NCBI GenBank assembly: GCA_039090665.1 | Contig: JAWCSL010000003.1 | Span: 1 to 63,499, forward strand | DNA from: Candidatus Aenigmatarchaeota archaeon | GTDB lineage: Archaea > Aenigmatarchaeota > Aenigmatarchaeia > CG10238-14 > SCSR01 | Length of the DNA: 63,499 bases | Reading direction: 5' to 3' | Part shown: positions 721 through 63,011 of the stretch, one piece after another | Layout of the letters: each line of letters opens with the position of its first letter | How positions within the stretch are numbered: position 1 is the first letter of the stretch | Program-made: the position numbers and the translations under genes | Notes under the pieces: generated by a model | Told to the model about the DNA's origin: nothing | Databases searched by the model: none | What the model saw: only the letters and a program-made list of their open reading frames with translations

Positions 721-978
721 GGCGTGCTGGTTGTAGCCCGTCTTTTGTTCCAGGGTAGCATTTGTCTAAGCGTCTCAAACTTGCACCTCATAGGGGGCAC
801 CGATCCGTTTCATCTTTGACAACCTCAACTCAATTTCAATCATCGTTATCGAGGTTGCAAAGTGTCGTTTCTGATATCGGTGCTACCTTCTCAGGTAAGC
901 TTACGCTCCCCTCAAAGGTGGACGGAACTTCCTCAGCCTTTCTTTGATGAAAGGCCGAAGCTACCCAACCAGCTCGCC
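721..978 (-). ncRNA. rnpB: RNase P RNA (compact, 258 nt)
   Basis: Minus strand has GAGGAAGUUCCGUCCAC (CR-I), CAGAAAC (CR-II), UGAAACG (CR-III), UGCAAG, GCUUAGACAAAUG (CR-IV), AACAAAAGACGGGCUAC (CR-V); ends pair as P1 (GGCGAGCUGGUUG / CAACCAGCACGCC). Confidence 0.93.
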
Positions 979-6211: not shown

Positions 6212-6247
6212 AATTTTACCTTTAGCTAACTACTATTTAAATCTTTA

Positions 6248-6333
6248 TGGGCCTGGAGGGATTCGAACCCTCAACCCGAGGTTTCTTCAAAAAACCGAAG
6301 CCTCGTCGGATATCCAAGTTTCCACACAGGCCC
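6248..6333 (-). tRNA. tRNA-Arg(UCG) with 12-nt intron at 37/38
   Basis: Stem CGAGG/CCTCG; CT-TCG-G, intron TTTTTTGAAGAA; BHB central helix CTTC/GAAG. Confidence 0.9.
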
Positions 6334-6422
6334 AATTAAATAAATTGCTTTTTTGTTTAAAATAAGACTAAGAAGGGAAAACCAATTTACAAAAAATATA
6401 AAAAAAGAAAAAGAAGAGGGAC

Positions 6423-7932: not shown

Positions 7933-8318
7933 CTAAACAAAATTTTAACAAACTCTGTGTAAATTTTTTATTAAAATTTTATTTAAAAGCATTTTTTATG
8001 TTTAAAATATATGATGAAAATTGTATGATAGTGAATTTAAATCGTGCAAACTATTTTTTTCTTTATATATCTTTTAAATCAACATCAGTTATATCACAAA
8101 AATTTTCTAGTTTCTCTTTTTATTTTTGTCAAATAAATCTTCCAAAGCACAACGTGCAATCAAAAATTTTAAAAAATCATGATTTCTTACACTTGAACCT
8201 AACTTAACAAAAATTTTCCTCAAGTTGAGACAGTCTTAATGGATAACTTCTATACAAAATTTTAATTATTCTTGTGCTGTAATCAATTTCTTTCACAATA
8301 GGAAACAAAAAAATTAAG

Positions 8319-8404
8319 CGCCCTCGGTGGGATTCGAACCCACGACCTACCGGTTAACAGCTTCACCCTATTCGTCGGGTGCTCTACCACTGAGCTACGA
8401 GGGC
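8319..8404 (-). tRNA. tRNA-Asn(GUU) with 14-nt non-canonical intron at 30/31
   Basis: Loop CTGTTAA, G73; removing ACGAATAGGGTGAA (8362-8375) restores a 72-nt cloverleaf; BHB central helix CACC/GGTG with 3-nt bulges. Confidence 0.9.
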
Positions 8405-10064: not shown

Positions 10065-11060
10065 TCAAGGCGAGGCTATTCCAGGAACTTTCGGAAAAGG
10101 AACAGCTTCCCATATTTTTTCCAACCCACAAATCCATCTTGTTAATCTTTCAACACCAATACCAAAACCAGAAGAAGGTGGTATGCCAATTTTCAGCATG
10201 TTTAAATACCACTTGTATTTTTTTGGATCTTCTCCAGTTTTTTTCATCCTTTCAACAACTTTTTTGTATTCATGCTCCCTCTCACCACCAGAAATAACTT
10301 CACCAAAACCTTCTGGTAAAATCAAGTCAAAATCTCTTAGTTTTTTCGTTTTGGGATCTTCAAGATAATAAAAACCTCTTGCTTTGAGGGGATAATCTGT
10401 TATCCATAAAGGTTCAGAACTCTGAGCAGACAAAGCTTCTTCAGCTTCCCATGGAATTTCTTCTTCATCACCCATTTTGAATCCAAGTTTTCTTACAATT
10501 TCAACTACTTGCTCATGAGTAAGTCTTTTGAAAGGAGTTTTTGGAACTTTTAATTTTCTGCCAAAAATTTCCAATTCTTTGAAACATTTCTTTTTCACAT
10601 CTTTTACCAAATAAACAATCATTTTTTCTGCCAAATGCATGGAATCTTCATAAGTAGCATAAGCCTCTTCTAGGTCAATTTGTCTGAATTCTGCTAAATG
10701 TCTTCCAGTTTTTGCAGATTTTTTTGGTTCAATTCTTATGTTTGGTGAAAGTGAAAAGATTTTATGGACAGAAGAGATTGCCATTTGTTTATACAAAATC
10801 ATGCTGCTCATGAGCTTGAACTTCTGGCCGTAAAAATCTATCGTAACTTGTTTAGCTCCTCTAATTCCAGGATCTGTAGCAGGACCTATTATTGGAGCAA
10901 GAATTTCTATGAAGCCTTGTTTCCTCAAAAATTCTCTTATAGCAGATAAAATTTCGTCTTGAATTTTAAGCATAGCAACCATTTTTGGATGTTTTAAGGC
11001 TATGTGTCTGTATTTGATTGATTGGATTGAGTTCAAGTTGCTAATTTCCATTATTATCAC
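10065..11060 (-). CDS. Archaeal asparagine synthetase A (AsnRS paralogue lacking the anticodon-binding domain)
   Basis: Class IIb catalytic core only; SMILYKQMAI, SPNIRIE, GRHLAEF, GEVISGGEREHEY, GFGIGVERL, PFPKVPG; no OB-fold. Confidence 0.9.
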   Translation of the reverse strand: MIIMEISNLNSIQSIKYRHIALKHPKMVAMLKIQDEILSAIREFLRKQGFIEILAPIIGPATDPGIRGAKQVTIDFYGQKFKLMSSMILYKQMAISSVHKIFSLSPNIRIEPKKSAKTGRHLAEFRQIDLEEAYATYEDSMHLAEKMIVYLVKDVKKKCFKELEIFGRKLKVPKTPFKRLTHEQVVEIVRKLGFKMGDEEEIPWEAEEALSAQSSEPLWITDYPLKARGFYYLEDPKTKKLRDFDLILPEGFGEVISGGEREHEYKKVVERMKKTGEDPKKYKWYLNMLKIGIPPSSGFGIGVERLTRWICGLEKIWEAVPFPKVPGIASP

Positions 11061-12655: not shown

Positions 12656-12742
12656 AGCCCCAGGCGGGATTTGCACCCGCGACCTCATGCTTACCACGCT
12701 TGCGCAATTCTTATGCGCTCTAGCTAGCTGAGCTACTGGGGC
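12656..12742 (-). tRNA. tRNA-Thr(GGU) with 13-nt intron at 29/30 and atypical elbow
   Basis: GCCCCAG/CTGGGGC, U73; removing AAGAATTGCGCAA (12700-12712) restores CATGC/GCATG; loop GTGGTAA; T-loop TGCAAAT. Confidence 0.8.
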
Positions 12743-23914: not shown

Positions 23915-24327
23915 TGAAGTTAAAATTCGATTTTGTTTCTTCAGCTGTCTTGGAATCTAAGCCAAGAGATAAAAGAATAAACTTCATCTTGAACAAGGTC
24001 AAAGATGGAACAATTTTGGTTACAGATGGGGTTATGAGTCCAGAAGAAGAAATGGAGCTTATAAAAGAGACGATGAGAAGAGTTGATGAGGGCTTTCCAG
24101 GAATTGAAGTTGCTAGTTTGAAAAAACCTGTGAGTGGAATAGCAAAGTGGATTGAAAAATTTTCGGAACAAAAAGATAAGGTAAAAATTTTCTTTGCGAG
24201 CTTGACTGGAGAGAAAAAAGTTTCCAAAAGTTGGAAAACTGGCTTAACTTTAATAGGGCCTGCTAAATACATCAAACAAGTGAAGAAAAACCCCAATTCT
24301 TTTTCAATTTTAACAGAGGTTAAATGA
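23911..24327 (+). CDS. oapB: DUF2073-type protein (OapB-like)
   Basis: ILVTDGVMSPEEEMELIKETM...FPGIEV...GLTLIGPA. Confidence 0.82.
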   Translation: MMKLKFDFVSSAVLESKPRDKRINFILNKVKDGTILVTDGVMSPEEEMELIKETMRRVDEGFPGIEVASLKKPVSGIAKWIEKFSEQKDKVKIFFASLTGEKKVSKSWKTGLTLIGPAKYIKQVKKNPNSFSILTEVK

Positions 24328-24743
24328 TGCATAAGTGTGTGAGATGTGGAACAATTTATCAGGATGAGGATTCTTCAATATTGAGAGGATGCACAAGTTG
24401 TGGATCAATTTTTTTCCTTTATTTAAAAGATCAACAAGATTTAGCTCAAGTAAAAGAGATAGAGAAAGAGCTTGAAGCTAGAGACACAACACTTGAAAAA
24501 GAAATAGTCAAAAAGATTGAAGAAAAAAAGGAAGAGCAGAGATTTGTTGTTGAAAAAGACAAGAAAAAAGCTAAGAAGGAAAGAAAGATTAAGTTTGGAA
24601 TTGAGACTGTGAGGATACCAAGAGAAGGAGTTTATGAAATAAATCTTGACGCTTTGATGCAGAAGAAACCTTTGATAATTTTGGAAAAGGGGAAAGTTTA
24701 CTTCATTCACTTACCTTCTGTTTTTGAAAGCAAGAAAGAATAA
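24324..24743 (+). CDS. oapC: Zn-ribbon protein (OapC-like)
   Basis: MHKCVRCG...GCTSCGSIFF...ETVRIPREGVYEINL. Confidence 0.85.
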   Translation: MMHKCVRCGTIYQDEDSSILRGCTSCGSIFFLYLKDQQDLAQVKEIEKELEARDTTLEKEIVKKIEEKKEEQRFVVEKDKKKAKKERKIKFGIETVRIPREGVYEINLDALMQKKPLIILEKGKVYFIHLPSVFESKKE

Positions 24744-32390: not shown

Positions 32391-32712
32391 GTTGGCTCTT
32401 GAAGTAGCAGAAGAGCTTAAAAACAAACTGGAAGTCGAGTTTGTGGAATTCGATCCAATAGAAACAATTGAAGGTGATGTTTGGTTAATGGATGTGGTCA
32501 AAGGAGTAAAAGATGTGGAATTGATAACTGAAGACCATTTTGAGAAAAACAAAGTTTATTCAATGCACGATTTAGACTTATCACACATGCTTGCTCTTTT
32601 GAAAAAGACAGGAAAAATAAAAAGCTTTAAACTGATAGCAATTCCTTTTGGAATGAAGAAAAAAGAAGCAGCAAAGAAAGTGGAGAGATTGCTCAAATCT
32701 TTATCCATTTAA
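32344..32712 (+). CDS. Divergent hydrogenase maturation protease-like protein
   Basis: LGNPLLKKD, LMDVV, SMHDL motifs align with HycI/HyaD-type motifs. Confidence 0.7.
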   Translation: MMKIYTLGNPLLKKDRLALEVAEELKNKLEVEFVEFDPIETIEGDVWLMDVVKGVKDVELITEDHFEKNKVYSMHDLDLSHMLALLKKTGKIKSFKLIAIPFGMKKKEAAKKVERLLKSLSI

Positions 32713-33982
32713 TCTTAAGGAAGTGACTTGCACAGCTGAAGCAAGGATCATAAGCCCTTATCAACCTTTCAATAGCATGCTGCATTTCATGTTTGTCTTT
32801 TCCTTCATCCAGAAGCTTTTGAACCAAATCTTTTATATCTTTTTCCATCTGTATCTGGTTTTGGGCAGTCGGTATTATGAAATTCGCATACTTGACTTTA
32901 CCTTCTTCATTCAAATAGACCATGTGATACAATGTGCCGCGCGGTGCTTCAACCACACCTATCCCTTCAGTTGCTTTAACTGAAATTTTTGGCAAATCTT
33001 CTTGCTTGAAACTAAAGTTTTCGAATATTGATATACAAGAATCTATCGAGTGCAATATTTCTATCGCTTGAGCAAGATTGTTGTCGTAAATGTTGTGAGA
33101 AGGAAACCTTTCCAAGATATTTCCAACACTTTTTATTGTTTTCGGATGTAAAGCTACTTTGTTGAGATTCAGTCTAGCCAAGGCACCAACCATGTATTCT
33201 TTACCTTCAAACTGAAAGCTTGTTGCTTGTGAATAAGGTATGACAACACGGTCAACAAAATCAGCAAAATTTTCTTCAGGGATTACAGTCCCTTCAAAAG
33301 TTCTTATTTCGCCTTCTATGAAGTTGAAGCTTGGGCTACAGAGTGCCACATAATTTCTTTCTTTTTCAAAACTCAATTTACATTTAGCCAATATATCTAT
33401 TAGCTCTAGAGCTTTTTTCCTCACATTTTTCAATTTGCTTACGGCTTCTTCTATTTCTTCTTCAGATGGAACTCTTGAAAAACCACCAATTCTCACTTCA
33501 GTTGGATGCACAGCCCTGCCGCCTATAATTTTGCACACAAAGTTTCCAGCATCTTTGACATCAAAAGCATCTTTTATCAAGTTTGGTTGCTCGTCTGAAA
33601 GCTCAAGCAAAGAATCTTTTTCAAAGATATCTGGAAGAGTGAAAAAATAAAGATGCATGGCATGGTCTCTTATCATTAAGCCAAACGCTAAAAGCTTCTT
33701 CATCACCATCGCTTGTTCACTAACTCTCACCCTCAAGCCTTTCTCTAAAGCTTCTGTTGATGCAAGAACATGTGCTATACTACATGTTCCACAAATTCTA
33801 GAAACGAATTGAGGCACAGCCAAATATTCTTTCTTTCTAGTTGCTTGTGTGAAAAATCTCTTGTTTTCTGCAACTTTCAGTTTAACATCTTTAACTTTTC
33901 CTCCAGAAACTTCTACTTCTAACTTAGCATGTCCTTCTGTCTTGCTTATCTTCTCTATTCCTATTTGGAAATCAGTGTGCAT
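32693..33982 (-). CDS. NiFe hydrogenase large subunit (group 3b-like alpha)
   Basis: KTEGH, SRICGTCSIAH, GGRAVHP, EAPRGTLYH, RAYDPCFSCASH plus a 9-aa extension. Confidence 0.93.
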   Translation of the reverse strand: MHTDFQIGIEKISKTEGHAKLEVEVSGGKVKDVKLKVAENKRFFTQATRKKEYLAVPQFVSRICGTCSIAHVLASTEALEKGLRVRVSEQAMVMKKLLAFGLMIRDHAMHLYFFTLPDIFEKDSLLELSDEQPNLIKDAFDVKDAGNFVCKIIGGRAVHPTEVRIGGFSRVPSEEEIEEAVSKLKNVRKKALELIDILAKCKLSFEKERNYVALCSPSFNFIEGEIRTFEGTVIPEENFADFVDRVVIPYSQATSFQFEGKEYMVGALARLNLNKVALHPKTIKSVGNILERFPSHNIYDNNLAQAIEILHSIDSCISIFENFSFKQEDLPKISVKATEGIGVVEAPRGTLYHMVYLNEEGKVKYANFIIPTAQNQIQMEKDIKDLVQKLLDEGKDKHEMQHAIERLIRAYDPCFSCASHFLKIKWIKI

Positions 33983-34457
33983 TCAAAACACCAAACTCTT
34001 TCAGATATTTTTCAATCACAGCTATCATTTTATCTTCCAGCATAGGGCATCCAGGTACTTCTTCATCTATTTTTACTAAATTTTTTGGAGCAATCGCTTT
34101 TTCCATATGTCCAAATTTCTTCATGATAGGTTTTATCTCTTCCATTTCTTCCTTATCCAAGAAATTCCTTGCATTTGAAGGCGAGCCAGTGATAGCACAA
34201 CTACCAACTGCCACAACCTTCTTGCTCACTTTCCTTATCTTTTCAAGTAACTTTTTTTCTTTTTCAGTAGAGATAACACCTTCTACAAAAGCTACATCTA
34301 TTTCAGAAAGTTCTTCTCTTGTTTGGATTAAACGAAAAGCTTTGAAATCTATCAAATCTTTCCATTCCCTATATTTTTTGTTCAATAGTTCCAAGAAGCT
34401 TATGCTACAGCCTTCATCACATGTGAAAGAAATGAATGCAATTTCTAACCTTTTCAT
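33972..34457 (-). CDS. NiFe hydrogenase small (delta) subunit, proximal-cluster domain only
   Basis: FTCDEGC, VEGVI, AVGSCA, VPGCP; ends 23 aa after GCP. Confidence 0.88.
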   Translation of the reverse strand: MKRLEIAFISFTCDEGCSISFLELLNKKYREWKDLIDFKAFRLIQTREELSEIDVAFVEGVISTEKEKKLLEKIRKVSKKVVAVGSCAITGSPSNARNFLDKEEMEEIKPIMKKFGHMEKAIAPKNLVKIDEEVPGCPMLEDKMIAVIEKYLKEFGVLNAH

Positions 34458-34529: not shown

Positions 34530-35024
34530 ATGAATCCGAAAGCCTTACTTGAGGCTGCCCTTTTTGTTTCTGATAAGCCTTTAAGCGTAGAAAAGCTTTC
34601 GAAAATTCTGAACATAAGTTCTGAAGAAGTGAAAAAGTTTCTGCTTAAGATTCAAACTGAGCTTCAGCAAGAAGACCATGGTATAGAGCTTGTGGAAACT
34701 CCAGAAGGTTTTGAGCTAAGGGTGAAACAAGAATATAGAGAAAAAGTTGCTAAACTTGCTCCTTTTGCTGATTTGAGCGATGGTATGATGAGGACTTTAG
34801 CGATAGTTGCTGCCAAGCAGCCTATAAAGCAATCTATAATTGTGAAAATTCAAGGAAACAAAGCTTACGGTTACATTGCTAGCTTGGAAGAAAAAGGTTT
34901 GATAAAGAGTGAAAAATTTGGAAGGACAAAGCTTCTCTCAACTACTTCAGACTTTGAAAAATATTTCGGCAAGAGCAGCGAGGAGATAAAGAGGATTTTG
35001 AGCGAAGCTGAGAAGAAAGCTTAA
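34530..35024 (+). CDS. scpB: SMC-Scp complex subunit ScpB
   Basis: LEAALFVS, METLA-like MRTLAIVA..QPI, GRTKLLSTT..FEKYFG. Confidence 0.92.
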   Translation: MNPKALLEAALFVSDKPLSVEKLSKILNISSEEVKKFLLKIQTELQQEDHGIELVETPEGFELRVKQEYREKVAKLAPFADLSDGMMRTLAIVAAKQPIKQSIIVKIQGNKAYGYIASLEEKGLIKSEKFGRTKLLSTTSDFEKYFGKSSEEIKRILSEAEKKA

Positions 35025-35346: not shown

Positions 35347-35982
35347 ATGAGCAAAAAATGGTACGAGCGCTATCATTGGTTTTTCTCGAGCAACAACATT
35401 TTGGTTATCCTTGGCAAAAATTCAAGAAATGATGAAACCATTCTCAAAAGATATACAAGACCACAAGACTTGGTTTTACATTCAGATTTGAAATCAAATT
35501 TCGCTGTGATAAGAAATGATTCTGCTCAAGTTTTACCAGCAGAAACAATTTATGAAGCTGCTGTTTTTCTTGCTTGTTACTCAGAAGCTTGGGATAAAAA
35601 GCTGGAGAAAGAGCAAGTTAGTGTTTTTTATGTCAAGCCTGAGCAAGTTAAGAAGCAAGAAGGAACAAAAGGGGTTTTTGAAATTATTGGAGAAAAGAAA
35701 TATCTGGAAAAAATTGAACCAAGGCTTTCTATTGGAATAAAACAAGAAGAAGTTTTTAACGCCAAGCTAATTTATGGTCCACCCACAGCAGTTAAAGCTC
35801 ACACTCCTTATTTAGTAACTCTTGTTCCAGGCGATACTCAAGCTAAAGCTTTGGCTGAAGAAATAAAGAGAGAATTGTTGCTAAAAGTTTGTCCTGAAAT
35901 TTCAAAAGCTACTGAAGAAATAGAACTGAAAGAAATAGAGAAGATAATTCCTTTCAAGAAAGGCGAGCTTGTTAAGCTTTAA
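35347..35982 (+). CDS. Stand-alone NFACT-R (Rqc2/NEMF C-terminal) domain protein
   Basis: KWYERYHWFFSS...LGKNSRNDE...LHSDL...EAAVFLACYSEAW...YVKPEQV. Confidence 0.82.
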   Translation: MSKKWYERYHWFFSSNNILVILGKNSRNDETILKRYTRPQDLVLHSDLKSNFAVIRNDSAQVLPAETIYEAAVFLACYSEAWDKKLEKEQVSVFYVKPEQVKKQEGTKGVFEIIGEKKYLEKIEPRLSIGIKQEEVFNAKLIYGPPTAVKAHTPYLVTLVPGDTQAKALAEEIKRELLLKVCPEISKATEEIELKEIEKIIPFKKGELVKL

Positions 35983-38383: not shown

Positions 38384-39079
38384 TCATGACTTGTTTTCTT
38401 CAATTTTTCTGATCCAAATTTCTTTGAAGTAGTCTTCTTGCTCAGTTTCTATTTTTTTGTCATTCTCCAAATGTAACAGAGGAACAAATTTTTCTACAAT
38501 TCTCTTTCTCTCCCACTTCTTCACTATCTGGCTAAACCCAACTTTTTCACTCTTCATCTTCTTCATCAGCTCATCTATTTCTCTCATCATCTCTTCTATT
38601 CTCTTTGTGATGTCTTCTTCTGTTATTTGCAATTCAATCCTTTCTCTCCACCTTCTGCTTCTTTCAATCCTCCTTTCTCTCACAGCCATGGCTTTCCTTA
38701 AAGCCAAAATTAGCTCGTCTAGTGTTATTTGCCTTTTTGGTATTCTTCTTATAGGAATACCAAGCTGAACTAGGTTGGGATCTATACCTAAATCAACAGG
38801 TTGTTGTTGAGCAATTTGTTCTATTGTTTCTTCTTCTTCAAAAATTGAAAGATAATCTGCTTTTAATCTTAATAGAACAGCAGCAACAAACACAACACGG
38901 GCAGGAATTCTGAAATCTAACTCTTCTATTTTTTTCAAATAATTCAGGAAGCTGTCAGTTAGTTTGATCAAATCAATATTCCAAGGATCAAGCTTTTCTA
39001 TACTGACTATGTGGTAAATTATTTCTTCCCAATTTTCCTTTTCAAGAACAAGTTGGAGAATGTTTTCTTCTTCCGTCAT
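38384..39079 (-). CDS. scpA: Kleisin ScpA
   Basis: LDPWNIDLIKL, AAVLLRLK, ITLDELI, FVPLLHL...EQEDYF. Confidence 0.9.
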   Translation of the reverse strand: MTEEENILQLVLEKENWEEIIYHIVSIEKLDPWNIDLIKLTDSFLNYLKKIEELDFRIPARVVFVAAVLLRLKADYLSIFEEEETIEQIAQQQPVDLGIDPNLVQLGIPIRRIPKRQITLDELILALRKAMAVRERRIERSRRWRERIELQITEEDITKRIEEMMREIDELMKKMKSEKVGFSQIVKKWERKRIVEKFVPLLHLENDKKIETEQEDYFKEIWIRKIEENKS

Positions 39080-39823: not shown

Positions 39824-42313
39824 TTAAGTTTCTTTAGGCAACTCAATTCCCAAAATTTTCGTTTCTCCCCTATCCATAGTACAACCATAAACCCTGTCAC
39901 CATAAGTTATTGTTGTATCATTGTGTGTGATCACAATGAACTGAGCTTCTTTCGAGAGCATTTTCAACAATTCGGCAACCTTCTTGCTATTCTCTTTATC
40001 CAAAGCAGCATCCACTTCATCCAAGATGTAAAAAGGAGCTGGTTTGTATTCTTGAACAGCAAACAAGAATGCTAAGGCAGTCAAGCTCTTCTCCCCACCA
40101 GACATAGCATCTATGTTCAAAAGCATCTTGCCCCCAGGATTTGCTTGAATTAACAACCCACTTTCTAAATTGTTTGGATCCTCAAGTTCCAAACTTGCAT
40201 TACCACCAGTCATCTTGTTGAACATTTCATTGAACTTCTTGCTGACATCTTGCAAAGTCTTAAAGAAAACTTCTCTTCTCTTTTGCTCTATTTGTTCAAT
40301 CATCTCAAGTACAGCTTTTTTTTCTGCCAATATCTTTTCATACTTTTGTTTGTATTCATCAAATTCCGTCTTAAACTTCTCGTATTGCTCTATTGCTTTA
40401 AAATTCACAGCTCCTAAGCTTAAAAGCTCATTTTGGGCTTGTCTTATTGCTATTTCCAAACTTCTCACACTTTTTTCAATAGGCTTAATTTCACCATATT
40501 GCTGAGCTTCCACTTTTAATGTCTCAAGTTCGGCTTCTATTCTTGCTTTTTGAATGGAAAGTTTATTGAGTTCTGTCTGAACCGCAAGTCTTTGTTCATA
40601 TGCAATTTTTCTCTTTTGTCTTAAGGAATCAAGCTCTTGTTCAGTATCAATTTTTATTTTTTCCAAATCAACCAGTTCTTTTGTTTCTTCAGATTTTGAA
40701 AGTTCTTTTAATCTTGCTTCACATTCTTGAATTTCTTTTTCGAAAGTTTGAATTTCTTCCTTTAATTTTTCCCTCAGTTTGAGATATTCTTCTATTTCAG
40801 CTTCGGTTGGTACAACTTTTGTAGCTCTTAAATAATAGCCTCCTATCATTGCTCCGCTTTTTTCAGCTAAATCTCCATCTAGGCTGACCATTCTAACTTT
40901 TCCTATGCCAATTTTTCTCATTGTTTCTAAATCTTCAACCACAAGTGTATTACCAAAAACAAACTCAATGGCAGGAGAAAACTTTTTATCAAACTCTATG
41001 AGTTTGCTTGCAACACCAATAACACCTTCCTCTTTGAGCAGATCTTTTTCTTCAAGTTCAACTGGTTTTATTTTGTTTAAGGGCAAGAAAGTAGCCCTTC
41101 CTATTCTTTCTTTCTTCAAAAATTCTATGCAGTTTTTAGCAGTTTCATCAGAATCAACAACTAAATCGTTTAAGTGAGGTCCGGCAGCAACTTCTATTGC
41201 TGTTTGATATTTTTCCGGAACTCTTATTAGGCTAGATATGACACCAAAAACACCTTTTATTTTTTGGTCTAAAATAGCTTTCACAGCTCTTGGTAATCCC
41301 AATTCACTTCTGGCTTCAATTTCCCTTAGCTTTTGAATCAAAGAATCTATTCTTTCAATTTCTTTTTTGTTTGAGTCAATTTTATCTTTATTAATCATTA
41401 TTTTAGTTCTCAGGTAAGAAATTTCTCTTTCAACTTCAACCTTCTTTGATAATGTTACAAGTTTGGCAGCAATCTCTCTTATTCCTTTTTCTCTTCTTTC
41501 AAGCTCAGCCTCTAAGGCTTCGATTTCTTTCTGTAGCAATTCATTTTCTTTTTCTTTCTTTTCAATTTCTTTGTTTAAATCTTCTATGGCTTTGTTGAAC
41601 TCTTGAATTTTTCTATGAACTAAGGAAGCTTTTAATAATTGCAATTGGGCTTGAAGTTCTTGGTATCTCAAAGCAGCATTTCTCTCTTCTTCTAACCTCT
41701 TAAAAATTTCATATCTTTCTGTAATCACTATTTCAGCTTCTTTTAACTTTGCATCCACTTCGGCCAAATCTTTCATCGCTTTTTCTTTCTTTTCATTGTA
41801 TTCAGCTATTCCTGAAATCTCATCTATTATAGCTCTTCTTTCTATAGGATTCATCTCTATCACATTGGTGACATCTCCTTGCAACACAATGTTATGACCA
41901 TCAGGGTAAATTCTAGCCGTGGCCAAAACTTCTAATATTTTTTCTCTTGTTGTAGTTTTTCCATTTAGCTTGTAAACAGAAACTCCTTTTCTGTTTATTT
42001 TTCTTGTTATAGAAATTTCAGGCTCTTCAAAAGGAAAGACCTTTTCACTATTGTCAAAATAAATGGTAACCGAAGCTATTTCAGCTGGAGGTTTTCCATT
42101 TCCCCCATGGAAAATTAGCTCGTGGAGCCTTCCCGCTCTGAGAGATTTAACAGAAGTGCTTCCTAAAGCAAAAGCTATTGCGTCAAGTAGATTTGATTTT
42201 CCACTTCCATTCGGTCCACATATTATTATTAATCCAGGTGAAAGGGGAACTGCAATTTTTTTATTAAAACTTTTGAATCCTTGTAACACAATTTTTTTAA
42301 TGTAAGTTTTCAT
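39824..42313 (-). CDS. smc: SMC protein (short, 829 aa)
   Basis: GPNGSGKSN, LQGDV Q-loop, hinge GVFGVISSLI...GRATFLPL...LDGD...GAMIGG, MSGGEKS, ILDEVDAALD, ITHN. Confidence 0.95.
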   Translation of the reverse strand: MKTYIKKIVLQGFKSFNKKIAVPLSPGLIIICGPNGSGKSNLLDAIAFALGSTSVKSLRAGRLHELIFHGGNGKPPAEIASVTIYFDNSEKVFPFEEPEISITRKINRKGVSVYKLNGKTTTREKILEVLATARIYPDGHNIVLQGDVTNVIEMNPIERRAIIDEISGIAEYNEKKEKAMKDLAEVDAKLKEAEIVITERYEIFKRLEEERNAALRYQELQAQLQLLKASLVHRKIQEFNKAIEDLNKEIEKKEKENELLQKEIEALEAELERREKGIREIAAKLVTLSKKVEVEREISYLRTKIMINKDKIDSNKKEIERIDSLIQKLREIEARSELGLPRAVKAILDQKIKGVFGVISSLIRVPEKYQTAIEVAAGPHLNDLVVDSDETAKNCIEFLKKERIGRATFLPLNKIKPVELEEKDLLKEEGVIGVASKLIEFDKKFSPAIEFVFGNTLVVEDLETMRKIGIGKVRMVSLDGDLAEKSGAMIGGYYLRATKVVPTEAEIEEYLKLREKLKEEIQTFEKEIQECEARLKELSKSEETKELVDLEKIKIDTEQELDSLRQKRKIAYEQRLAVQTELNKLSIQKARIEAELETLKVEAQQYGEIKPIEKSVRSLEIAIRQAQNELLSLGAVNFKAIEQYEKFKTEFDEYKQKYEKILAEKKAVLEMIEQIEQKRREVFFKTLQDVSKKFNEMFNKMTGGNASLELEDPNNLESGLLIQANPGGKMLLNIDAMSGGEKSLTALAFLFAVQEYKPAPFYILDEVDAALDKENSKKVAELLKMLSKEAQFIVITHNDTTITYGDRVYGCTMDRGETKILGIELPKET

Positions 42314-44085: not shown

Positions 44086-44234
44086 AGAGAAATAGTTTTG
44101 TTTTCTCTATTTTTAAAATTTTATCTTTTTTAGAAAAATACAAAAAATTCATTAATGGATTTCTCCAAATCTTCAATTTTTTAATTTTTCCCATTCACAT
44201 AAAGAATTAGTTTTATAAAAAAATTTGAGCTTTA

Positions 44235-44308
44235 TGGGCCCGGAGGGATTTGAACCCTCGACCAACTGGTTAAGAGCCAGCTGCTCTACCATGCTGAGCT
44301 ACGGGCCC
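44235..44308 (-). tRNA. tRNA-Lys(CUU)
   Basis: GGGCCCG/CGGGCCC, stem GCTGG/CCAGT, loop CTCTTAA. Confidence 0.95.
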
Positions 44309-44383
44309 GATAAAAGATATCTCTGTTTTCACAAATTAATTTGTTTAAACTTTTATTATAAAACAACAAAAAGTTTTTCTGAT

Positions 44384-45364
44384 ATGGAAAAGCTTACAAT
44401 AGATCAAATTACAAGAAAGAAATTGAGGAATGCCAAGTACGGAGTTTTCGGACACTCCACAGTTCATATTTGTAACTGGACAAAGAGAGCTTTACGCAAT
44501 CAAGGCACATGCTACAAAAACAAGTTTTATGGTATAGAGACACATAGATGCATGGAATTCTCTCCAGCTGGAATGTTTTGTCAGAATCGTTGCATTTATT
44601 GCTGGCGCCCCACAGAATTTTACAAGCTTTTGGAGATGAAAGTTGAGCAGGTTGATGAGCCGGAGCAAATAATCCAAGCTTTGATTAAAGAAAGAAAAAA
44701 GCTCTTGACAGGTTTCGGAAGCAATAAAAAAGTGAAAAGAGAGAAGCTGAAAGAAGCTTATGATCCAACGCATTTTGCAATTTCTCTTAGCGGGGAGCCG
44801 ACTATATATCCCAAGCTTCCAGAAATGATAAAGTATTTAAAAACCTTACCTCAAACAAAATCAATTTTTTTGGTGACAAACGGTCAAGAGCCAAAAATGC
44901 TTGAAAGACTGGAGAGAGAAAGCGCTTTACCTACTCAAATTTACTTGAGTATGAATGCTGGCACAAAAGGAACTTTTTTTAAAGTGAATTGTCCTTTGCT
45001 AAAAGATGCTTGGAAAAGGTTCGACAAGAGCTTGAAATTTTTAAGCAAGACAAAAACAAGGACTGTTATAAGGATAACTTTAATCAAAGGTTTTAATGAT
45101 TCTGAAGAAGAGATTCCAGAATTTGCAAAACTGGTGAAAAAAGCAAATCCAAATTTTGTTGAAGTAAAATCTTACATGCACGTTGGTAGCTCTATAACAA
45201 GACTTTCGGCTCAACACATGCTTGAACAAAATGAAGTAAAAAATTGGGCCGAAAAATTGCGTAATTTCTTACCAAATTTTGAATATATGGATGAGCAAGA
45301 AGAATCAAGAATTGTGGTTATGCAGAACAAAGAAAGATTTGTGGATAGATGGATAATCAAATAA
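44384..45364 (+). CDS. taw1: 4-demethylwyosine synthase (Tyw1/Taw1)
   Basis: HSTVHICNW, YGIETHRC, CQNRCIYCWRP, AISLSGEPT, VTNG, EVKSY. Start moved past the tRNA. Confidence 0.93.
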   Translation: MEKLTIDQITRKKLRNAKYGVFGHSTVHICNWTKRALRNQGTCYKNKFYGIETHRCMEFSPAGMFCQNRCIYCWRPTEFYKLLEMKVEQVDEPEQIIQALIKERKKLLTGFGSNKKVKREKLKEAYDPTHFAISLSGEPTIYPKLPEMIKYLKTLPQTKSIFLVTNGQEPKMLERLERESALPTQIYLSMNAGTKGTFFKVNCPLLKDAWKRFDKSLKFLSKTKTRTVIRITLIKGFNDSEEEIPEFAKLVKKANPNFVEVKSYMHVGSSITRLSAQHMLEQNEVKNWAEKLRNFLPNFEYMDEQEESRIVVMQNKERFVDRWIIK

Positions 45365-45745: not shown

Positions 45746-45857
45746 TGGGCCTACCGGGATTTGAACCCGGGACCAACGGGTTTCTTTCATCTTTTTAATC
45801 AAAGCTTTTAGCTTTAAGCTAAAAGCCCGCTGCTCTACCATGCTGAGCTATAGGCCC
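45746..45857 (-). tRNA. tRNA-Lys(UUU) with 38-nt intron at 37/38
   Basis: Stem GCGGG/CCCGT; intron 45782-45819; BHB helix CTTT/AAAG. Confidence 0.9.
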
Positions 45858-52712: not shown

Positions 52713-53939
52713 TCAATCAATCTTATATCTTAAGAAAGCCCCAATTCCGCCAAGCTCCTTGAACTGAATTCCTTCGCTTGTTTCTGTAGAAATGTATTCA
52801 ACTCTTGTTCCCAAACAAGAAGCTTTTTCCACAAGCTCGTCCAAAAGTTCATAGCTCTCTTCTTCAATCAATCTTTGTCCACAATTTGGGCACTTCTGTT
52901 TTTCTACCAAGAACCTTGGTAAATCTTTTTCTTCAGAAAAACCACAAACACATTTGAACTTAACATGAAGCCAATTGAATTCTTCTGAAATAAGCAACAA
53001 ATCAACAGCTCCAGCTTCCAAAGCTTTTTTTGTTTCTTCAAGTCCATAAACCACATTACCATTGTTTTTGAGTTCAGTGAAAAATTTTTGCATGATTTCT
53101 CTCTCTTTTGAGATGGTTGCCTCTTTCAACAAGTCTTGAGATTTGAAAACAAGCTCTTCCAAACCATACTCATCAGTTGAACCTATATCCTTAACACCCA
53201 AAACTTTCTTTTGAAGCTGGTAATGTAAATAATTTTTGTCATAAAAAGTTTCTTTTACCGGACCAGGACCACCTATAAGCACTCCTTTCAAATTTTCTTG
53301 TTTGAGCAGAAGATTTGAAGCTTCTTCTCCAACTTTTACCAAAAATTCATTTAAGGCGTCATCCCTAAGTCTATCATACCTTTTTTGCGACATCCCGCCT
53401 TTTACGGTCTTGCTCGGTACGGTTGACTCAAAACTTTTCAATTTTTCAACTTTCTTTCCTTTCAACAAGCCTATTGTAGCTTCTTTTGCATCCAAAACTA
53501 TCAACCCATAAACTTCTTTTTCAGAAATCAAATCTTTCAAAGGATCGAGCACAAAAGTTTGGTCGCACCAATAAATTTTTTGAGAAATTGGAATTGGAGG
53601 CTCATAGCTCCAAAGCCTTATATCTTCCTTTCCCTCAACTTCAGAAACATTACCACAAAATATTACCAAACCATTATCAGGAGTTTTCCTGAAAAGCTTC
53701 AAGTGTTGCAAGATTTTTTCTAAAGCTGCTAATACATTTTTTCGTGTGGTCTTGCTTTTTATGTTGTTTGCAGTACCCTTTTCTTGAAAAATCTGGTTTA
53801 CAGCTTCGGCTAAATTGTAGCCAGCAGGAATATAAACACTAACCAATTCTGTATGTCTTCCTTTAATTTTTTCAAGTTCTTTTATCAGTTTTTTCAGTTT
53901 CAGCTTTTCTTCCTCTTTTATTTCATTCATTAAAACCAC
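52713..53939 (-). CDS. prf1: Peptide chain release factor aRF1
   Basis: GRHTELVSVYIP, TANNIKS, YWCDQTF, C-terminal LGGIGAFLRY; GGM at the GGQ position. Confidence 0.95.
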   Translation of the reverse strand: MVLMNEIKEEEKLKLKKLIKELEKIKGRHTELVSVYIPAGYNLAEAVNQIFQEKGTANNIKSKTTRKNVLAALEKILQHLKLFRKTPDNGLVIFCGNVSEVEGKEDIRLWSYEPPIPISQKIYWCDQTFVLDPLKDLISEKEVYGLIVLDAKEATIGLLKGKKVEKLKSFESTVPSKTVKGGMSQKRYDRLRDDALNEFLVKVGEEASNLLLKQENLKGVLIGGPGPVKETFYDKNYLHYQLQKKVLGVKDIGSTDEYGLEELVFKSQDLLKEATISKEREIMQKFFTELKNNGNVVYGLEETKKALEAGAVDLLLISEEFNWLHVKFKCVCGFSEEKDLPRFLVEKQKCPNCGQRLIEEESYELLDELVEKASCLGTRVEYISTETSEGIQFKELGGIGAFLRYKID

Positions 53940-53996: not shown

Positions 53997-56327
53997 TTAG
54001 TGGATTATATTGTGCATTGCTTTCAAATCTTTTTCAAAAACTTTGAGTTCTTCAGGAATTTCAACTTCAATATTATCTTTGAGAGAAAGTCCTTTTTCTT
54101 TCTTTAAATTCCAAACTTTAGAATTAAACTCAACAATCTTTTCAGTAAGCTTTTCTAGTTCACTTTTCCACTCAGGTTTTGGAAAGTTTTGCAAGTGAAT
54201 CGATTCTTTGTTGTAAAGTTCTAACCATATCTTTTCTGTTATGAAAGGAGTTATGGGGGCAAGCAGAAGCAAAATGTTCTTAAGACAAGTATGTAAAGTG
54301 AACCAAGCAGCCTCTTGCTCTTCTTTTGTAAAACCTTGACCATAAGCTCTTGGTTTAACCATTTCTAGATAGTGGGAAGCAAACAAATTCCAAGCAAATT
54401 CTCTTATTTTTGTGGCAGGAATAAAGAAGTTGAAATCTTCGTATCCTTTCAGACATTCTTCTATCAATTTGCTGAGTTCAGCCAAAATCCATTTATCAGT
54501 TTCGGTAAGATTTGCTTTTTGTGGTTGTGGGAAGGAAGAAATAAACCTTGCTATGTTCCAGAGCTTGGTCAAAAACTTTGAAGCAGAAGCGATTCTTTCT
54601 TCCGAACATCTGAAATCATATCCTAGGCTAACTTCAGAAGCACTCCAAAATCTGAAGTTGTCCGCACCATATTTCTCCAAAATAGGCAAAGGATCTATAA
54701 CATTGCCTTTACTTTTACTCATCCTTTCTCCTTTTTCATCAACACCATATCCCATTATCCAGGCATGTTGCCAAGCCTCTATTCCTGTGAGTTGGTAGCA
54801 TCTTAGCAAAGTATAATATAGCCAAGTCCTTACTATATCTTTTGCTTGTGGTCTTAAACTATTTGGGAAAGTTTTCTTAAAGAATTCCTCATCTCTTAAA
54901 AATTTTGAAATGAACAAGGGTGTGATGCTTGAGTCAAACCAAGTATCAAAAGTTCTGGTTTCACCTTCAAATTCTTTCCCATCACAATATTTACACTTCT
55001 CGAAAGGAGGTTTTTCTTTCCAAGGTTGGTAATATTTTCCAGGTTTTGGTAGGTTCGGCTTACCACATTTCTTGCAATACCATACAGGAACTTCTGTTCC
55101 ATAGTATCTTCTCCTAGAAATTGGCCAGTCTATGGTAACAGAATTAATCCAGTTATAAAGGATTTGTCTATGTTGCTCAGGATGAAATATAATCCTTTCA
55201 GCTATTTTTTTCACATCTTCCAAAAAAGGTAATTGTTTGAGATAAAATTCATCTAAAGATATAATTTCTATTGGTGTTTTGCTTCTTTCACAAACTGGCG
55301 TGCGGTGGAGTATATTTTCTTTCTTTTCAATTAGTCCTTCAGCTTCTAAATCTTCGATGATCTTCTTTCTTGCTTCTTTGACCTCAAGTCCAGCATACTT
55401 TCCAGCATTTTCATTCATCTTTCCCTCCAGGTTTATAGCTATTATCTCTTTCAAACCAAGCTCTCTAAATAGTCTCACGTCTGTGGTATCACCATAACTA
55501 CAGATCATCACAATTCCAGAGCCAAACTCAGGATTCGCTGCCGGATTTGCGAGAATAGGAACCTCTCTATTATATATAGGTAATACAGCCCTTTTTCCAA
55601 CTAAATGTTTATATCTCCCATCTTCAGGATGGACTAGAATCGCTTGACAAGAACAAATGAGTTCTGGTCTTGTTGTCGCTATTGTTATATACCCCTCTTC
55701 ACCAGCAAGCTTGAACTTAACATAAACAAGTTGTGTTGGCAATTCTTCATAAACAATATCGGCATCTGCTATTGTTGTTCTACAATCCGGACAATAATTG
55801 TTGGGTCTTGTTGCTTGGTATATCAAGCCCTTTTCCCAAAGAATTAAGAAAGTTTCTTGTGTTAGCTTTCTATATTCTTCTGAATCTGTTCTGTAGTAAT
55901 TTTCAAAATCTCCACTCAACCCCATTCTTTTCATTATTTGTATTAGCTCAGCTTCTAAATCATCCAAAGCTGTTTTTGCTAAAGCAATGAATTTTTCTCT
56001 TGGGGTTTCGTGCATTTTTATGTTGAATTTTTTCTCTGTGTATCTTTCGACTGGTACACCATTCCTATCAATCCCAATTGGGAAGAAAACTTCAAATCCA
56101 AACATTCGAGCGGTTCTTGCTATCATGTCTATTTGGGAGTAGTGGGCTGCAGCTCCAATATGCCATGGTCGGCCTGAAGGATAGGGTGGTGGAGTATCTA
56201 TGGAAAAAATCTTTTTGTTAGTTTTGAGGTTGAAAGAGAAAATCTTTTCCTTTTCCCACTTCTTAAATATCTCTTTTTCAATTTCAACATTCCATCTATT
56301 TTCCTTTATTTTTGGTTCAAATGACAT
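53997..56327 (-). CDS. valS: Valyl-tRNA synthetase
   Basis: SIDTPPPYPSG..HIGA, ATTRPE, DWPISRRRYYG, DTWFDSS, RMSKSKGN. Confidence 0.94.
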   Translation of the reverse strand: MSFEPKIKENRWNVEIEKEIFKKWEKEKIFSFNLKTNKKIFSIDTPPPYPSGRPWHIGAAAHYSQIDMIARTARMFGFEVFFPIGIDRNGVPVERYTEKKFNIKMHETPREKFIALAKTALDDLEAELIQIMKRMGLSGDFENYYRTDSEEYRKLTQETFLILWEKGLIYQATRPNNYCPDCRTTIADADIVYEELPTQLVYVKFKLAGEEGYITIATTRPELICSCQAILVHPEDGRYKHLVGKRAVLPIYNREVPILANPAANPEFGSGIVMICSYGDTTDVRLFRELGLKEIIAINLEGKMNENAGKYAGLEVKEARKKIIEDLEAEGLIEKKENILHRTPVCERSKTPIEIISLDEFYLKQLPFLEDVKKIAERIIFHPEQHRQILYNWINSVTIDWPISRRRYYGTEVPVWYCKKCGKPNLPKPGKYYQPWKEKPPFEKCKYCDGKEFEGETRTFDTWFDSSITPLFISKFLRDEEFFKKTFPNSLRPQAKDIVRTWLYYTLLRCYQLTGIEAWQHAWIMGYGVDEKGERMSKSKGNVIDPLPILEKYGADNFRFWSASEVSLGYDFRCSEERIASASKFLTKLWNIARFISSFPQPQKANLTETDKWILAELSKLIEECLKGYEDFNFFIPATKIREFAWNLFASHYLEMVKPRAYGQGFTKEEQEAAWFTLHTCLKNILLLLAPITPFITEKIWLELYNKESIHLQNFPKPEWKSELEKLTEKIVEFNSKVWNLKKEKGLSLKDNIEVEIPEELKVFEKDLKAMHNIIH

Positions 56328-62348: not shown

Positions 62349-63011
62349 ATGAAGTGGGACAAAAGAGCTTGGGATAAAATCTTCAAGAAAGAGGGAAAAC
62401 CGTATAAGAAGATCCTCAAGGATATGAGGAAAATTGTGAAATTTTTCAAGAAAAGAAATGTAAAAAGAATTCTTGATCTAGGCTGTGGCACAGGAAGGCA
62501 TTTAGTTTACTTGGCAAAGCAAGGTTTTGAAGTTTATGGCCTTGATATTTCTGAGCAGGGAATAAAAATAGCTAGGAAATATCTTAAAAAAGAAAAAGTT
62601 GAAGGAAAGCTTAAGGTTGGTGACATTTACAAGAAGCTACCTTATGAAGATGATTTTTTCGATGCCATAGTTAGCACTAAAGTCATACACCACGCTGACA
62701 TAGAGAACATAAGGAAATTGATAAGAGAAATGGAGAGAATTCTCAAGCCAAGTGGCTTAATTTTCATAACCGTTGATAAAAAAAAGCCAAAAAAAGAAAT
62801 ACCAAAAGAAAAGCTTTGGAAAATAAAATTCATAGCACCGAGAACTTTCATGCCATTAACAGGTCCAGAGAAAGGAATGATTCACTTTTGGTTCAACAAG
62901 AAACTTTTGAGAAAAGAGTTCAAGAATTTCAAGATTTACGATATTTGGATTGATTCAGAAGACCATTATGCTTTATTAGGAGAGCTAAAAGATGGACCGG
63001 CCGGGATTTGA
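62349..63011 (+). CDS. Class I SAM methyltransferase
   Basis: ILDLGCGTGRH, LPYEDDFFDAIV, ILKPSG. Confidence 0.9.
   Translation: MKWDKRAWDKIFKKEGKPYKKILKDMRKIVKFFKKRNVKRILDLGCGTGRHLVYLAKQGFEVYGLDISEQGIKIARKYLKKEKVEGKLKVGDIYKKLPYEDDFFDAIVSTKVIHHADIENIRKLIREMERILKPSGLIFITVDKKKPKKEIPKEKLWKIKFIAPRTFMPLTGPEKGMIHFWFNKKLLRKEFKNFKIYDIWIDSEDHYALLGELKDGPAGI

What the first reader, a model, noticed from the sequence alone, without database searches (positions are those of the whole stretch)
53391..53399. aRF1 with GGM instead of the near-universal GGQ
Seen: codons AAA GGC GGG ATG TCG CAA = K-G-G-M-S-Q, in a protein that keeps NIKS and YxCxxxF and is therefore aRF1, not pelota. Established: the GGQ Gln enters the peptidyl-transferase centre and is N5-methylated by HemK-type enzymes. 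CAR to ATG needs at least two base changes, so a single miscall is unlikely. Inference: a lineage-specific release chemistry with Met as a fixed mimic of methyl-Gln, possibly with loss of the methylase.
Basis: partly seen in the sequence, partly recalled or inferred. Interest (0 to 1): 0.78.

Follow-up and report, generated by a model that had tools for sequence, protein, structure and literature searches.

The report
Archaeal release factor lacking catalytic glutamine
This archaeon's translation release factor (aRF1) carries methionine where all textbook release factors have the "universal" catalytic glutamine of the GGQ motif, and a whole clade of related DPANN archaea has Met, Trp or Phe there, which offers a natural test of what that glutamine and its methylation are for.

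Summary
Window 53391-53399 (minus strand) encodes G181-G182-M183 of a 405/408-aa aRF1 (52713-53939). The Met aligns with the Gln of GGQ in solved aRF1/eRF1 structures. It is not a sequencing error. All 115 regex-matched sequences among the 120 closest database relatives (58-95% identity) have GGM (111), GGF (2) or GGW (2), and none has GGQ. dN/dS against the closest genome is 0.05.

The gene lies directly downstream of valS, where canonical GGQ aRF1 lies in related DPANN and other archaea, so it is the aRF1 ortholog, not a spare paralog. No second aRF1, pelota or GGQ protein is in the window, and no assembly or long contig was seen carrying both a GGQ and a non-Q aRF1.

GGW is a second large variant, including one closed 742-kb chromosome, and in a rough tree it sits basal to the GGM clade. 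Met therefore probably replaced Trp, not Gln. That weakens "Met mimics methyl-Gln" and favours "any bulky hydrophobic residue works". 88% of non-Q sequences have Gln two residues later (GG-x-S-Q), but 23 have no loop Gln.

Loss of the Mtq2 methylase remains untested. No prior report was found.

The parts
52713..53939 (-). aRF1 gene. The ORF runs from a GTG at 53939 (408 aa); the probable true start is the ATG at 53930 (405 aa, MNEIK...). The stop is TGA.
   Evidence: eRF1_1 (residues 16-137), eRF1_2 (144-273), eRF1_3 (276-407); TIGR03676 471.7 bits; PDB 4af1 E 2.2e-84. AF2 model pLDDT 89.1, with aRF1 and eRF1 as best folds. dN/dS 0.05 against L007.
53391..53399 (-). Codons GGC GGG ATG = Gly181-Gly182-Met183, at the position of the GGQ motif.
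   Evidence: In the AF2 model the tripeptide lies in the loop that caps helix 185-212.
53385..53387 (-). Gln185 (CAA), two residues after the Met, giving G-G-M-S-Q, i.e. a GG-x-S-Q pattern.
   Evidence: Gln at +2 in 163 of 186 non-Q aRF1s against 22 of 209 GGQ aRF1s. [quoted passage not shown]
53754..53765 (-). NIKS stop-codon recognition motif (residues 59-62).
   Evidence: translation. NIKS is kept in 161 of 186 non-Q sequences.
53553..53573 (-). YxCxxxF motif (YWCDQTF, residues 123-129).
   Evidence: Conserved in both the non-Q and Q groups.
53997..56327 (-). Valine-tRNA ligase (valS) immediately upstream of aRF1 on the same strand, 57-nt gap. This is the conserved syntenic partner that marks the aRF1 locus.
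   Evidence: NF009687, 940 bits; valS then aRF1 at all 11 assessable GGM loci, at GGW locus L028 and at 13 canonical GGQ loci (gap within -200 to 600 nt).

Best explanation
The gene is this organism's orthologous, functional class-I release factor (aRF1). In its lineage, a large clade whose sources label it Aenigmatarchaeota (DPANN), the Gln of the catalytic GGQ tripeptide has been permanently replaced by a bulky hydrophobic residue: Trp in the deeper lineages, Met in the subclade that holds this window, and occasionally Phe.

Proposed mechanism (inferred, not shown):
- The two glycines keep the backbone conformation that inserts the loop into the peptidyl-transferase centre.
- The main-chain NH of residue 183 still positions the hydrolytic water.
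- The hydrophobic side chain takes over the packing role against the 23S rRNA PTC nucleotides. In other organisms that role falls to the Gln side chain and is reinforced by its N5-methyl group.
- On this view the factor needs no Mtq2/HemK2 methylation.
- The Gln commonly found two residues downstream (GG-x-S-Q) and the Phe-to-Tyr change at +5 may be compensatory, but they are not obligatory.

Shown: identity, orthology, fixation, purifying selection, and the restriction of the position to M, W or F.
Inferred: catalytic competence, the packing mechanism, and independence from methylation.
For: Identity and fold:
- TIGR03676 471.7 bits; three eRF1 domains.
- Met on the Gln of GGQ in PDB alignments.
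- AF2 pLDDT 89.1, best hits aRF1 4af1 and eRF1 5lzt.

Fixation:
- 111 GGM, 2 GGF, 2 GGW and 0 GGQ among the 115 regex-matched sequences of the 120 nearest clusters.
- In an NJ tree built with the motif and its flanks masked, the split holding all GGM representatives (61 M, 3 F, 1 W, 0 Q) has 86% bootstrap support.
- GGW lineages are basal to it.

Constraint:
- dN/dS 0.05 against L007.
- The loop V-P-S-K-T-V-K-G-G-M-S-Q-x-R-Y-D-R is nearly invariant in 133 sequences.
- NIKS and YxCxxxF are retained.
- Within the 107-representative clade that holds this window only M, W, F (and 9 Q) occur, which indicates selection for a large hydrophobic residue, not drift. Elsewhere three isolated sequences carry Ser or Ala.

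Orthology:
- valS then aRF1 adjacency is shared with canonical GGQ aRF1 loci of Aenigmatarchaeota-labelled, Undinarchaeota and Woesearchaeota genomes and several unnamed archaea.

No second factor seen:
- tblastn finds no other eRF1-family gene in the window, and no other GGQ or GGxSQ ORF of 80 aa or more.
- No assembly occurs twice among the 80 best genome loci, which reach down to Thermococcus and Thermoplasmata aRF1s and include the closed GGW chromosome CP070804.1.
- No shared long-contig lengths between the Q and non-Q lists; the one 7035-bp coincidence was two different contigs.

Standard code:
- TAA 32, TGA 19 and TAG 10 end the long ORFs.

Literature:
- The Gln side chain has a packing role in the PTC.
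- N5-methylation adds van der Waals contacts with U2506, A2451 and A2452.

Methylase:
- A true Mtq2 was found beside GGQ-type aRF1s only.
Against: - No biochemical data exist for any of these proteins.
- Elsewhere, replacing the Gln is harmful in vivo. Mutation of each GGQ residue is reported lethal in bacteria (PMC9589212, citing Mora 2003). Drosophila eRF1 Q185A is non-functional and dominant-negative (bioRxiv 10.1101/2024.01.29.576963). Catalytic competence of GGM or GGW therefore needs compensation that I have not identified.
- The strong association with Gln at +2 (88% against 10.5%) fits a relocated catalytic Gln at least as well for most sequences.
- Only 63 kb of the genome is in hand.
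- Absence of Mtq2 in GGM and GGW genomes was not demonstrated. Long GGQ control contigs also failed to appear in the Mtq2 hit list.
- The tree is NJ only. The pure non-Q split has just 44% bootstrap support, and 9 GGQ representatives nest among the GGW lineages.
Confidence: 0.55

Rival explanations
1. Register shift. The catalytic Gln has moved two residues, from GG-Q-S-A to GG-x-S-Q. Gln185 does the job of the classical Gln, as proposed for the GGxSQ loops of VLRF-1-type release-factor homologs, and Met, Trp or Phe at the old position is a spacer. Gln185 might still be methylated.
For: - Gln at +2 occurs in 163 of 186 non-Q aRF1s (93% of GGM, 79% of GGW, all GGF and GGA) against 22 of 209 GGQ aRF1s.
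- Most isolated non-Q sequences outside the main clade (P0151, P0162, P0165, P0193, P0196, P0238, P0246, P0254) also have S-Q.
- GGQSQ exists as a plausible intermediate (10% of GGQ sequences).
- Burroughs & Aravind give GGxSQ as the motif of aVLRF-1 and acVLRF-1, and GxuQ as a general pattern (PMC6514570).
Against: - 23 non-Q sequences in several separate clusters have no Gln anywhere in the loop (GGMSA, GGMSS, GGWSA; e.g. P0017, P0035, P0127, L026), so the +2 Gln is dispensable.
- The old position is not free to vary as a spacer would be: in the main clade it is restricted to M, W or F.
- The association is not corrected for phylogeny.
- In the AF2 model residue 185 is the first residue of helix 185-212, not the loop tip. 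Geometry on the ribosome was not modelled.
Confidence: 0.22
2. The GGM/GGW protein recognises stop codons but cannot catalyse release. Hydrolysis is carried out by a second factor elsewhere in the genome: a canonical aRF1 paralog, a bacterial-type GGQ protein, or a host-supplied factor in these episymbionts.
For: - Q-to-A substitutions inactivate eRF1 elsewhere.
- Only 63 kb of the genome was examined.
- Sources label GGQ-, GGW- and GGM-type aRF1s alike as 'Aenigmarchaeota', so co-occurrence could not be excluded by name alone.
Against: - The GGM gene occupies the ancestral valS-aRF1 locus.
- It shows no rate acceleration: short stem branches and dN/dS 0.05.
- The GG backbone and the whole loop are nearly invariant, which a dead catalytic loop would not require.
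- No assembly appears twice among the 80 genome loci, including a closed GGW chromosome.
- No shared long contigs.
- aRF1 is normally single-copy in archaea (my own knowledge, not tested here).
Confidence: 0.08
3. Sequencing, assembly or binning artefact, or a pseudogene.
For: None beyond the a priori rarity of non-GGQ release factors.
Against: - The same motif appears in more than 130 independent sequences from four data sources and on contigs up to 938 kb.
- The reading frame is intact and all other motifs are conserved.
- dN/dS is 0.05.
Confidence: 0.01

Closest known systems
Canonical archaeal/eukaryotic class-I release factor aRF1/eRF1 (TIGR03676; PDB 4af1, 3agk, 1dt9, 5lzt)
   Same: Full-length homology (39% identity to 4af1 in the structural alignment); three-domain fold; NIKS, YxCxxxF, the Gly-Gly pair and the following Ser-x-x-Arg; the Cys4 insertion in domain 3; genomic position downstream of valS as in related archaea.
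   Different: The catalytic Gln of GGQ is Met here (Trp or Phe in relatives). This is usually accompanied by Gln at +2 and Tyr instead of Phe at +5, and by Lys at -1 in all GGM sequences. The substrate residue of Mtq2-Trm112 is therefore absent.
VLRF-1 families (Vms1-like release factors: aVLRF-1, acVLRF-1) with a GGxSQ loop (Burroughs & Aravind 2019, PMC6514570)
   Same: The loop sequence G-G-M-S-Q fits their GGxSQ pattern. The Pfam acVLRF1 model gives a secondary hit on domain 2 (47 bits).
   Different: The protein has the NIKS-bearing stop-codon recognition domain and the aEF1-alpha-binding domain 3 of true aRF1, and it is the positional ortholog of aRF1. The VLRF1 hit lies under a much stronger eRF1_2 hit (139 bits).
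Pelota/Dom34 and Balon-type eRF1 homologs (no GGQ, no peptide release)
   Same: eRF1 superfamily fold; absence of the classical Gln.
   Different: Pelota and Balon also lack NIKS and the Gly-Gly loop. Scores are far below cutoff (pelota 88 bits against 177.65; Balon-type 39 bits against 480).
Laboratory GGQ Gln mutants of RF1/RF2/eRF1
   Same: The same residue is replaced. Published work assigns the side chain a packing role, with catalysis helped by the main-chain NH (PMC5799190).
   Different: Those are engineered and deleterious in vivo. Here the replacement is natural, ancient, fixed in a clade and under purifying selection.

Membership tests
aRF1/eRF1 class-I release factor (by descent) | Equivalog HMM TIGR03676 above its curated cutoff, and eRF1 domains 1, 2 and 3 in order | tested here: met
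   471.7 bits against 234.7; PF03463, PF03464 and PF03465 all above cutoff.
aRF1/eRF1 class-I release factor (by descent) | Three-domain eRF1 fold | tested here: met
   AF2 pLDDT 89.1, pTM 0.72. Foldseek top hits: 4af1 aRF1 E 2e-43; 5lzt eRF1 TM 0.81.
aRF1/eRF1 class-I release factor (by descent) | Stop-codon recognition motifs NIKS and YxCxxxF in domain 1 | tested here: met
   NIKS at residues 59-62 and YWCDQTF at 123-129; conserved across the non-Q clade.
aRF1/eRF1 class-I release factor (by descent) | Positional orthology with canonical aRF1 | tested here: met
   valS then aRF1 on the same strand in the window, at all 11 assessable GGM loci and at 13 canonical GGQ loci of related archaea.
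aRF1/eRF1 class-I release factor (canonical, functional definition) | Invariant Gly-Gly-Gln catalytic tripeptide | tested here: not met
   G181-G182-M183. For this reason I file it as a variant of aRF1 (an ortholog with an altered catalytic motif), not as a canonical member.
aRF1/eRF1 class-I release factor (canonical, functional definition) | Stop-codon-dependent peptidyl-tRNA hydrolysis | not testable with these tools
   Needs an in vitro release assay or genetics.
aRF1/eRF1 class-I release factor (canonical, functional definition) | Sole class-I factor of the genome | tested here: inconclusive
   No second copy in the 63-kb window. No assembly appears twice among 80 loci and no long contigs are shared. 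But scans were truncated (600 rows, 120 hits) and whole genomes could not be read.
Pelota | TIGR00111 above cutoff; no NIKS and no GG loop | tested here: not met
   88.2 bits against 177.65; NIKS and the GG pair are present.
Balon / ribosome-hibernation eRF1 homologs | NF052288 / NF052289 / NF052287 above cutoff | tested here: not met
   39, 27 and 23 bits against cutoffs of 480, 320 and 330.
VLRF-1 (Vms1-like) release factors | GGxSQ loop in a VLRF1-type domain, without a stop-codon recognition domain | tested here: not met
   The loop pattern fits (GGMSQ), but NF041024 scores 34 bits against 125, and the protein has the NIKS domain and eRF1 domain 3.
HemK2/Mtq2 glutamine methyltransferase (window ORF 5015-5638) | TIGR00537 above cutoff and an N-x-P-Y motif | tested here: not met
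   33 bits against 87; the motif is NPPF. For comparison, L001:3183-3785 from a GGQ lineage scores 195 bits with NTPY.

The most novel reading that the evidence does not exclude
A phylum-scale group of archaea terminates all protein synthesis with a release factor that has no glutamine at the catalytic position (Trp, Met or Phe instead; in some lineages no Gln anywhere in the loop) and has dispensed with Mtq2 methylation. This would show in nature that the "universal" GGQ glutamine is not chemically required for peptidyl-tRNA hydrolysis, and that a hydrophobic plug can replace methyl-glutamine in the peptidyl-transferase centre.
Probability: 0.45. Interest if true: 0.9.

Novelty: new variant of a known kind. 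Interest (0 to 1): 0.8.

Why it matters
[quoted passage not shown] What the side chain and its methyl group contribute (water positioning, nucleophile exclusion, packing) has been argued from engineered mutants that are sick or lethal.

A large natural clade that has replaced the Gln with Trp, Met or Phe under strong purifying selection gives several things:
- Ready-made functional variants for release assays and cryo-EM.
- A direct test of whether methylation becomes dispensable.
- A set of co-varying positions (+2 Gln, +5 Tyr, -1 Lys) that point to how the loop was re-engineered.

It also has a practical side. Annotation and classification pipelines that use "has GGQ" to tell aRF1 from pelota- or Balon-like paralogs (for example the filter described in PMC13324472) would mishandle these proteins.

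Tried and rejected
- **Second aRF1 or pelota in the window.** tblastn with the aRF1 found only itself. A motif scan found no other GGQ or GGxSQ ORF.
- **Mtq2 in the window.** ORF 5015-5638 looked promising (PF05175 MTS) but is an NPPF methyltransferase below the Mtq2 cutoff, probably METTL5/COG2263-like. ORF 62349-63011 is a generic class-I methyltransferase.
- **Contig-length fingerprints for aRF1 paralogs or Mtq2.** The method worked as a positive control for the P0273 GGQ lineage (33866, 34904, 21730, 14694 bp). It gave no hit for GGM or GGW contigs, but none for the other long GGQ contigs either, so the negative result is weak.
- **The 7035-bp coincidence.** It proved to be two unrelated contigs.
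- **Metagenome scan with an Mtq2 alignment.** It returned 80 loci; none has the length of a known GGM or GGW contig and none carries a confident aRF1. Uninformative.
- **Weak Mtq2-HMM hit in GGW locus L025.** It is KsgA/RsmA.
- **23S rRNA PTC segment in fetched loci**, to look for compensatory rRNA changes: none present.
- **Primary mutagenesis papers** (Seit-Nebi 2001, Shaw & Green 2007) are not held in the library, so what I recall of them is not used as evidence.
- **Stop-codon reassignment** as an explanation is rejected: all three stops terminate long ORFs.
- **Literature searches** for GGM/GGW, DPANN or Aenigmatarchaeota together with GGQ found no prior description.

Full report
**1. The observation**

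On the plus strand, 53391-53399 reads catcccgcc. On the minus strand this is GGC GGG ATG, preceded by AAA and followed by TCG CAA, giving K-G-G-M-S-Q. The codons lie in ORF 52713-53939 (minus strand). It is 408 aa from a GTG, but the closest homologs are 404-405 aa and start at MNEIK, so the ATG at 53930 is the likely start.

The product has eRF1 domains 1, 2 and 3. It scores 471.7 bits on the aRF1 equivalog TIGR03676 (cutoff 234.7), while pelota and Balon-type models stay far below their cutoffs. Alignments to solved aRF1 (4af1, E 2e-84) and human eRF1 put Met183 on the Gln of GGQ. NIKS (59-62) and YWCDQTF (123-129) are present. An AlphaFold2 model (pLDDT 89.1) matches aRF1 and eRF1 best and places G181-G182-M183 in the loop that caps helix 185-212.

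**2. Not an error: the substitution is fixed in a clade**

The 120 nearest 90%-identity clusters (58-95% identical) come from NCBI, JGI, ENA and Logan, and several are labelled Candidatus Aenigmatarchaeota. They contain 111 GGM, 2 GGF, 2 GGW and no GGQ. The other five carry an intein at the motif and are also GGM.

Evidence of constraint:
- dN/dS between the window gene and the closest genome copy (L007, 91% amino-acid identity) is 0.05.
- In 133 GGM sequences the loop V-P-[SG]-K-[TS]-V-K-G-G-M-S-Q-x-R-Y-D-R is almost invariant.
- All three stop codons end long ORFs in the window (TAA 32, TGA 19, TAG 10), so the genetic code looks standard.

**3. The phenomenon is wider than GGM**

A search of 50%-identity representatives and a second search seeded with a GGQ relative turned up more variants:
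- A large set of GGW aRF1s: 67 sequences in the final set.
- More GGF sequences.
- Three isolated sequences with GGA or GGS.

Among one-per-species genomes I found 9 GGM loci (one on a 791-kb contig), 15 GGW loci (one on the closed 742-kb chromosome CP070804.1) and 11 GGQ loci labelled Aenigmatarchaeota (one on the closed chromosome CP066684.1).

I built an NJ tree of 246 representatives with the motif and its flanks masked:
- All GGM sequences fall in one split (61 M, 3 F, 1 W, no Q; bootstrap 86%).
- That split is nested in a 107-member clade in which GGW lineages are basal and paraphyletic.
- Nine GGQ representatives also sit in that clade.
- Parsimony needs about 7 Q/non-Q changes over the whole tree.

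The tree is rough: NJ only, with 44% support for the pure non-Q split. Its message is still that Trp came first and Met replaced Trp in the window's subclade.

**4. Ortholog or paralog?**

In the window, aRF1 lies 57 nt downstream of valS on the same strand. The same adjacency holds at:
- all 11 GGM loci with enough upstream sequence;
- GGW locus L028;
- 13 canonical GGQ aRF1 loci, including those labelled Aenigmatarchaeota (L040, L042, L044, L045, L047, L049), Undinarchaeota (L060), Woesearchaeota (L081) and several unnamed archaea.

The GGM gene therefore sits at the ancestral aRF1 locus.

I found no sign of a second factor:
- No second eRF1-family gene in the window and no other GGQ or GGxSQ ORF.
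- No assembly represented twice among 80 genome loci that reach down to Thermococcus and Thermoplasmata aRF1s.
- No long contig shared between the GGQ and non-Q lists. The single 7035-bp coincidence was two different contigs.

These negatives are limited by truncated outputs (120 hits, 600 scan rows) and by my inability to read whole genomes.

**5. The methylase**

The window's only HemK-like hit (5015-5638) is an NPPF methyltransferase scoring 33 bits against the 87-bit Mtq2 cutoff. A true Mtq2 (195 bits, NTPY) lies 6 kb from the GGQ aRF1 of another "Aenigmarchaeota" lineage (L001).

Its database relatives share contigs with GGQ aRF1s of that lineage. Beyond those, the named hits are methanogens and Thermoplasmata, not GGM or GGW Aenigmatarchaeota. 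An Mtq2 HMM hit only GGQ loci among all fetched loci. A weak hit in a GGW locus is KsgA. This points towards loss of Mtq2 in the non-Q lineages but does not prove it. A metagenome scan added nothing.

**6. Mechanism**

Published structures assign the Gln side chain a packing role in the PTC. The N5-methyl group adds van der Waals contacts to U2506, A2451 and A2452, and the water is held by the main-chain NH (PMC5799190).

My best explanation is that a large hydrophobic side chain (W, M or F) provides that packing permanently, the Gly-Gly backbone and the main-chain NH do the chemistry, and methylation becomes unnecessary.

The main rival is a register shift. 88% of non-Q sequences have Gln at +2 (GG-x-S-Q) against 10.5% of GGQ sequences, and they also have Tyr instead of Phe at +5. 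GGxSQ is the loop pattern reported for VLRF-1 families (PMC6514570). However, 23 sequences (GGMSA, GGMSS, GGWSA) have no loop Gln, so the +2 Gln cannot be essential everywhere. It may have been a permissive or compensatory step (GGQSA to GGQSQ to GGWSQ to GGMSQ).

Against any claim of activity: Gln substitutions are lethal or dominant-negative in bacteria and flies, and nothing here has been assayed.

**7. Comparison and novelty**

By descent this is the aRF1 ortholog. By the canonical functional definition (invariant GGQ) it fails one defining feature, so I classify it as a new variant of a known kind.

The papers I could search call GGQ "universally conserved", propose that the Gln is methylated in archaea generally (PMC6144793), and even use GGQ presence to tell aeRF1 from paralogs (PMC13324472). 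I found no paper describing GGM, GGW or GGF release factors. The library is incomplete, so an earlier report cannot be excluded.

**8. Verdict**

- Interest is high because a textbook invariant is broken by natural, constrained variants that make the role of the GGQ glutamine directly testable.

Noticed in passing
homologs P0006, P0031, P0093, P0108, P0112, P0121-P0126 and others (not in the window): Intein hot spot exactly at the catalytic motif. 61 long aRF1 homologs carry an intein between GG[Q/M/W/F/S] and the following Ser, for example KGGM|CVEEDT...HN|SQKRY (intein Cys1, terminal His-Asn, Ser as the +1 extein residue). The same site is used in Q-, M-, W- and F-type factors. No paper on aRF1 inteins was found.
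   Followed up: partly
window 5015-5638 (+): 207-aa methyltransferase with an NPPF motif, below the Mtq2 cutoff and probably a METTL5/COG2263-like RNA methylase. Its start overlaps the stop of a radical-SAM gene (4026-5018).
   Followed up: partly
window 35347-35982 (+): 211-aa ORF that matches only the C-terminal third (positions 439-643 of 645) of archaeal RqcH (NF041120, 172 bits, cutoff 400). It may be a stand-alone C-terminal module of the ribosome-rescue protein.
   Followed up: no
window 39824-42313 (-), 38384-39079 (-), 34530-35024 (+): The SMC protein is only 829 aa and matches the ~1165-aa TIGR02169 model in three stretches, which suggests a shortened coiled coil. ScpA and ScpB are encoded nearby.
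   Followed up: no
window 24324-24743 (+) and about 24.9-26 kb: An origin-associated protein OapC (PF09845) lies next to an ORF-poor stretch. This may be a replication origin.
   Followed up: no
window 6247-6334, 8318-8404, 12656-12742, 45746-45857 (all -): tRNA genes that ARAGORN reads oddly (anticodons 'tcgg' and 'ga') or misses, but that Rfam scores as tRNA. One is 112 nt long. They are probably intron-containing archaeal tRNAs.
   Followed up: no
window 722-977 (-): Archaeal RNase P RNA (RF00373, 133 bits).
   Followed up: no
window 10065-11060 (-) and 8417-9706 (-): A class-II aaRS catalytic core without an anticodon-binding domain (331 aa) lies next to a full Asp/Asn-type tRNA synthetase (429 aa).
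   Followed up: no
window 44225-45364 (+) vs 44235-44308 (-): The TYW1 ORF as listed (TTG start) overlaps tRNA-Lys on the other strand. The family match starts at residue 65, so the true start is probably downstream.
   Followed up: no
window 32693-33982 (-) and 33972-34457 (-): [NiFe]-hydrogenase large subunit and a small/delta-type subunit in a DPANN genome fragment.
   Followed up: no
L001:3183-3785 and P0403-P0522: About half of the archaeal Mtq2 homologs recovered have NTPY instead of the textbook NPPY motif (52 NTPY against 54 NPPY among 117 sequences).
   Followed up: no
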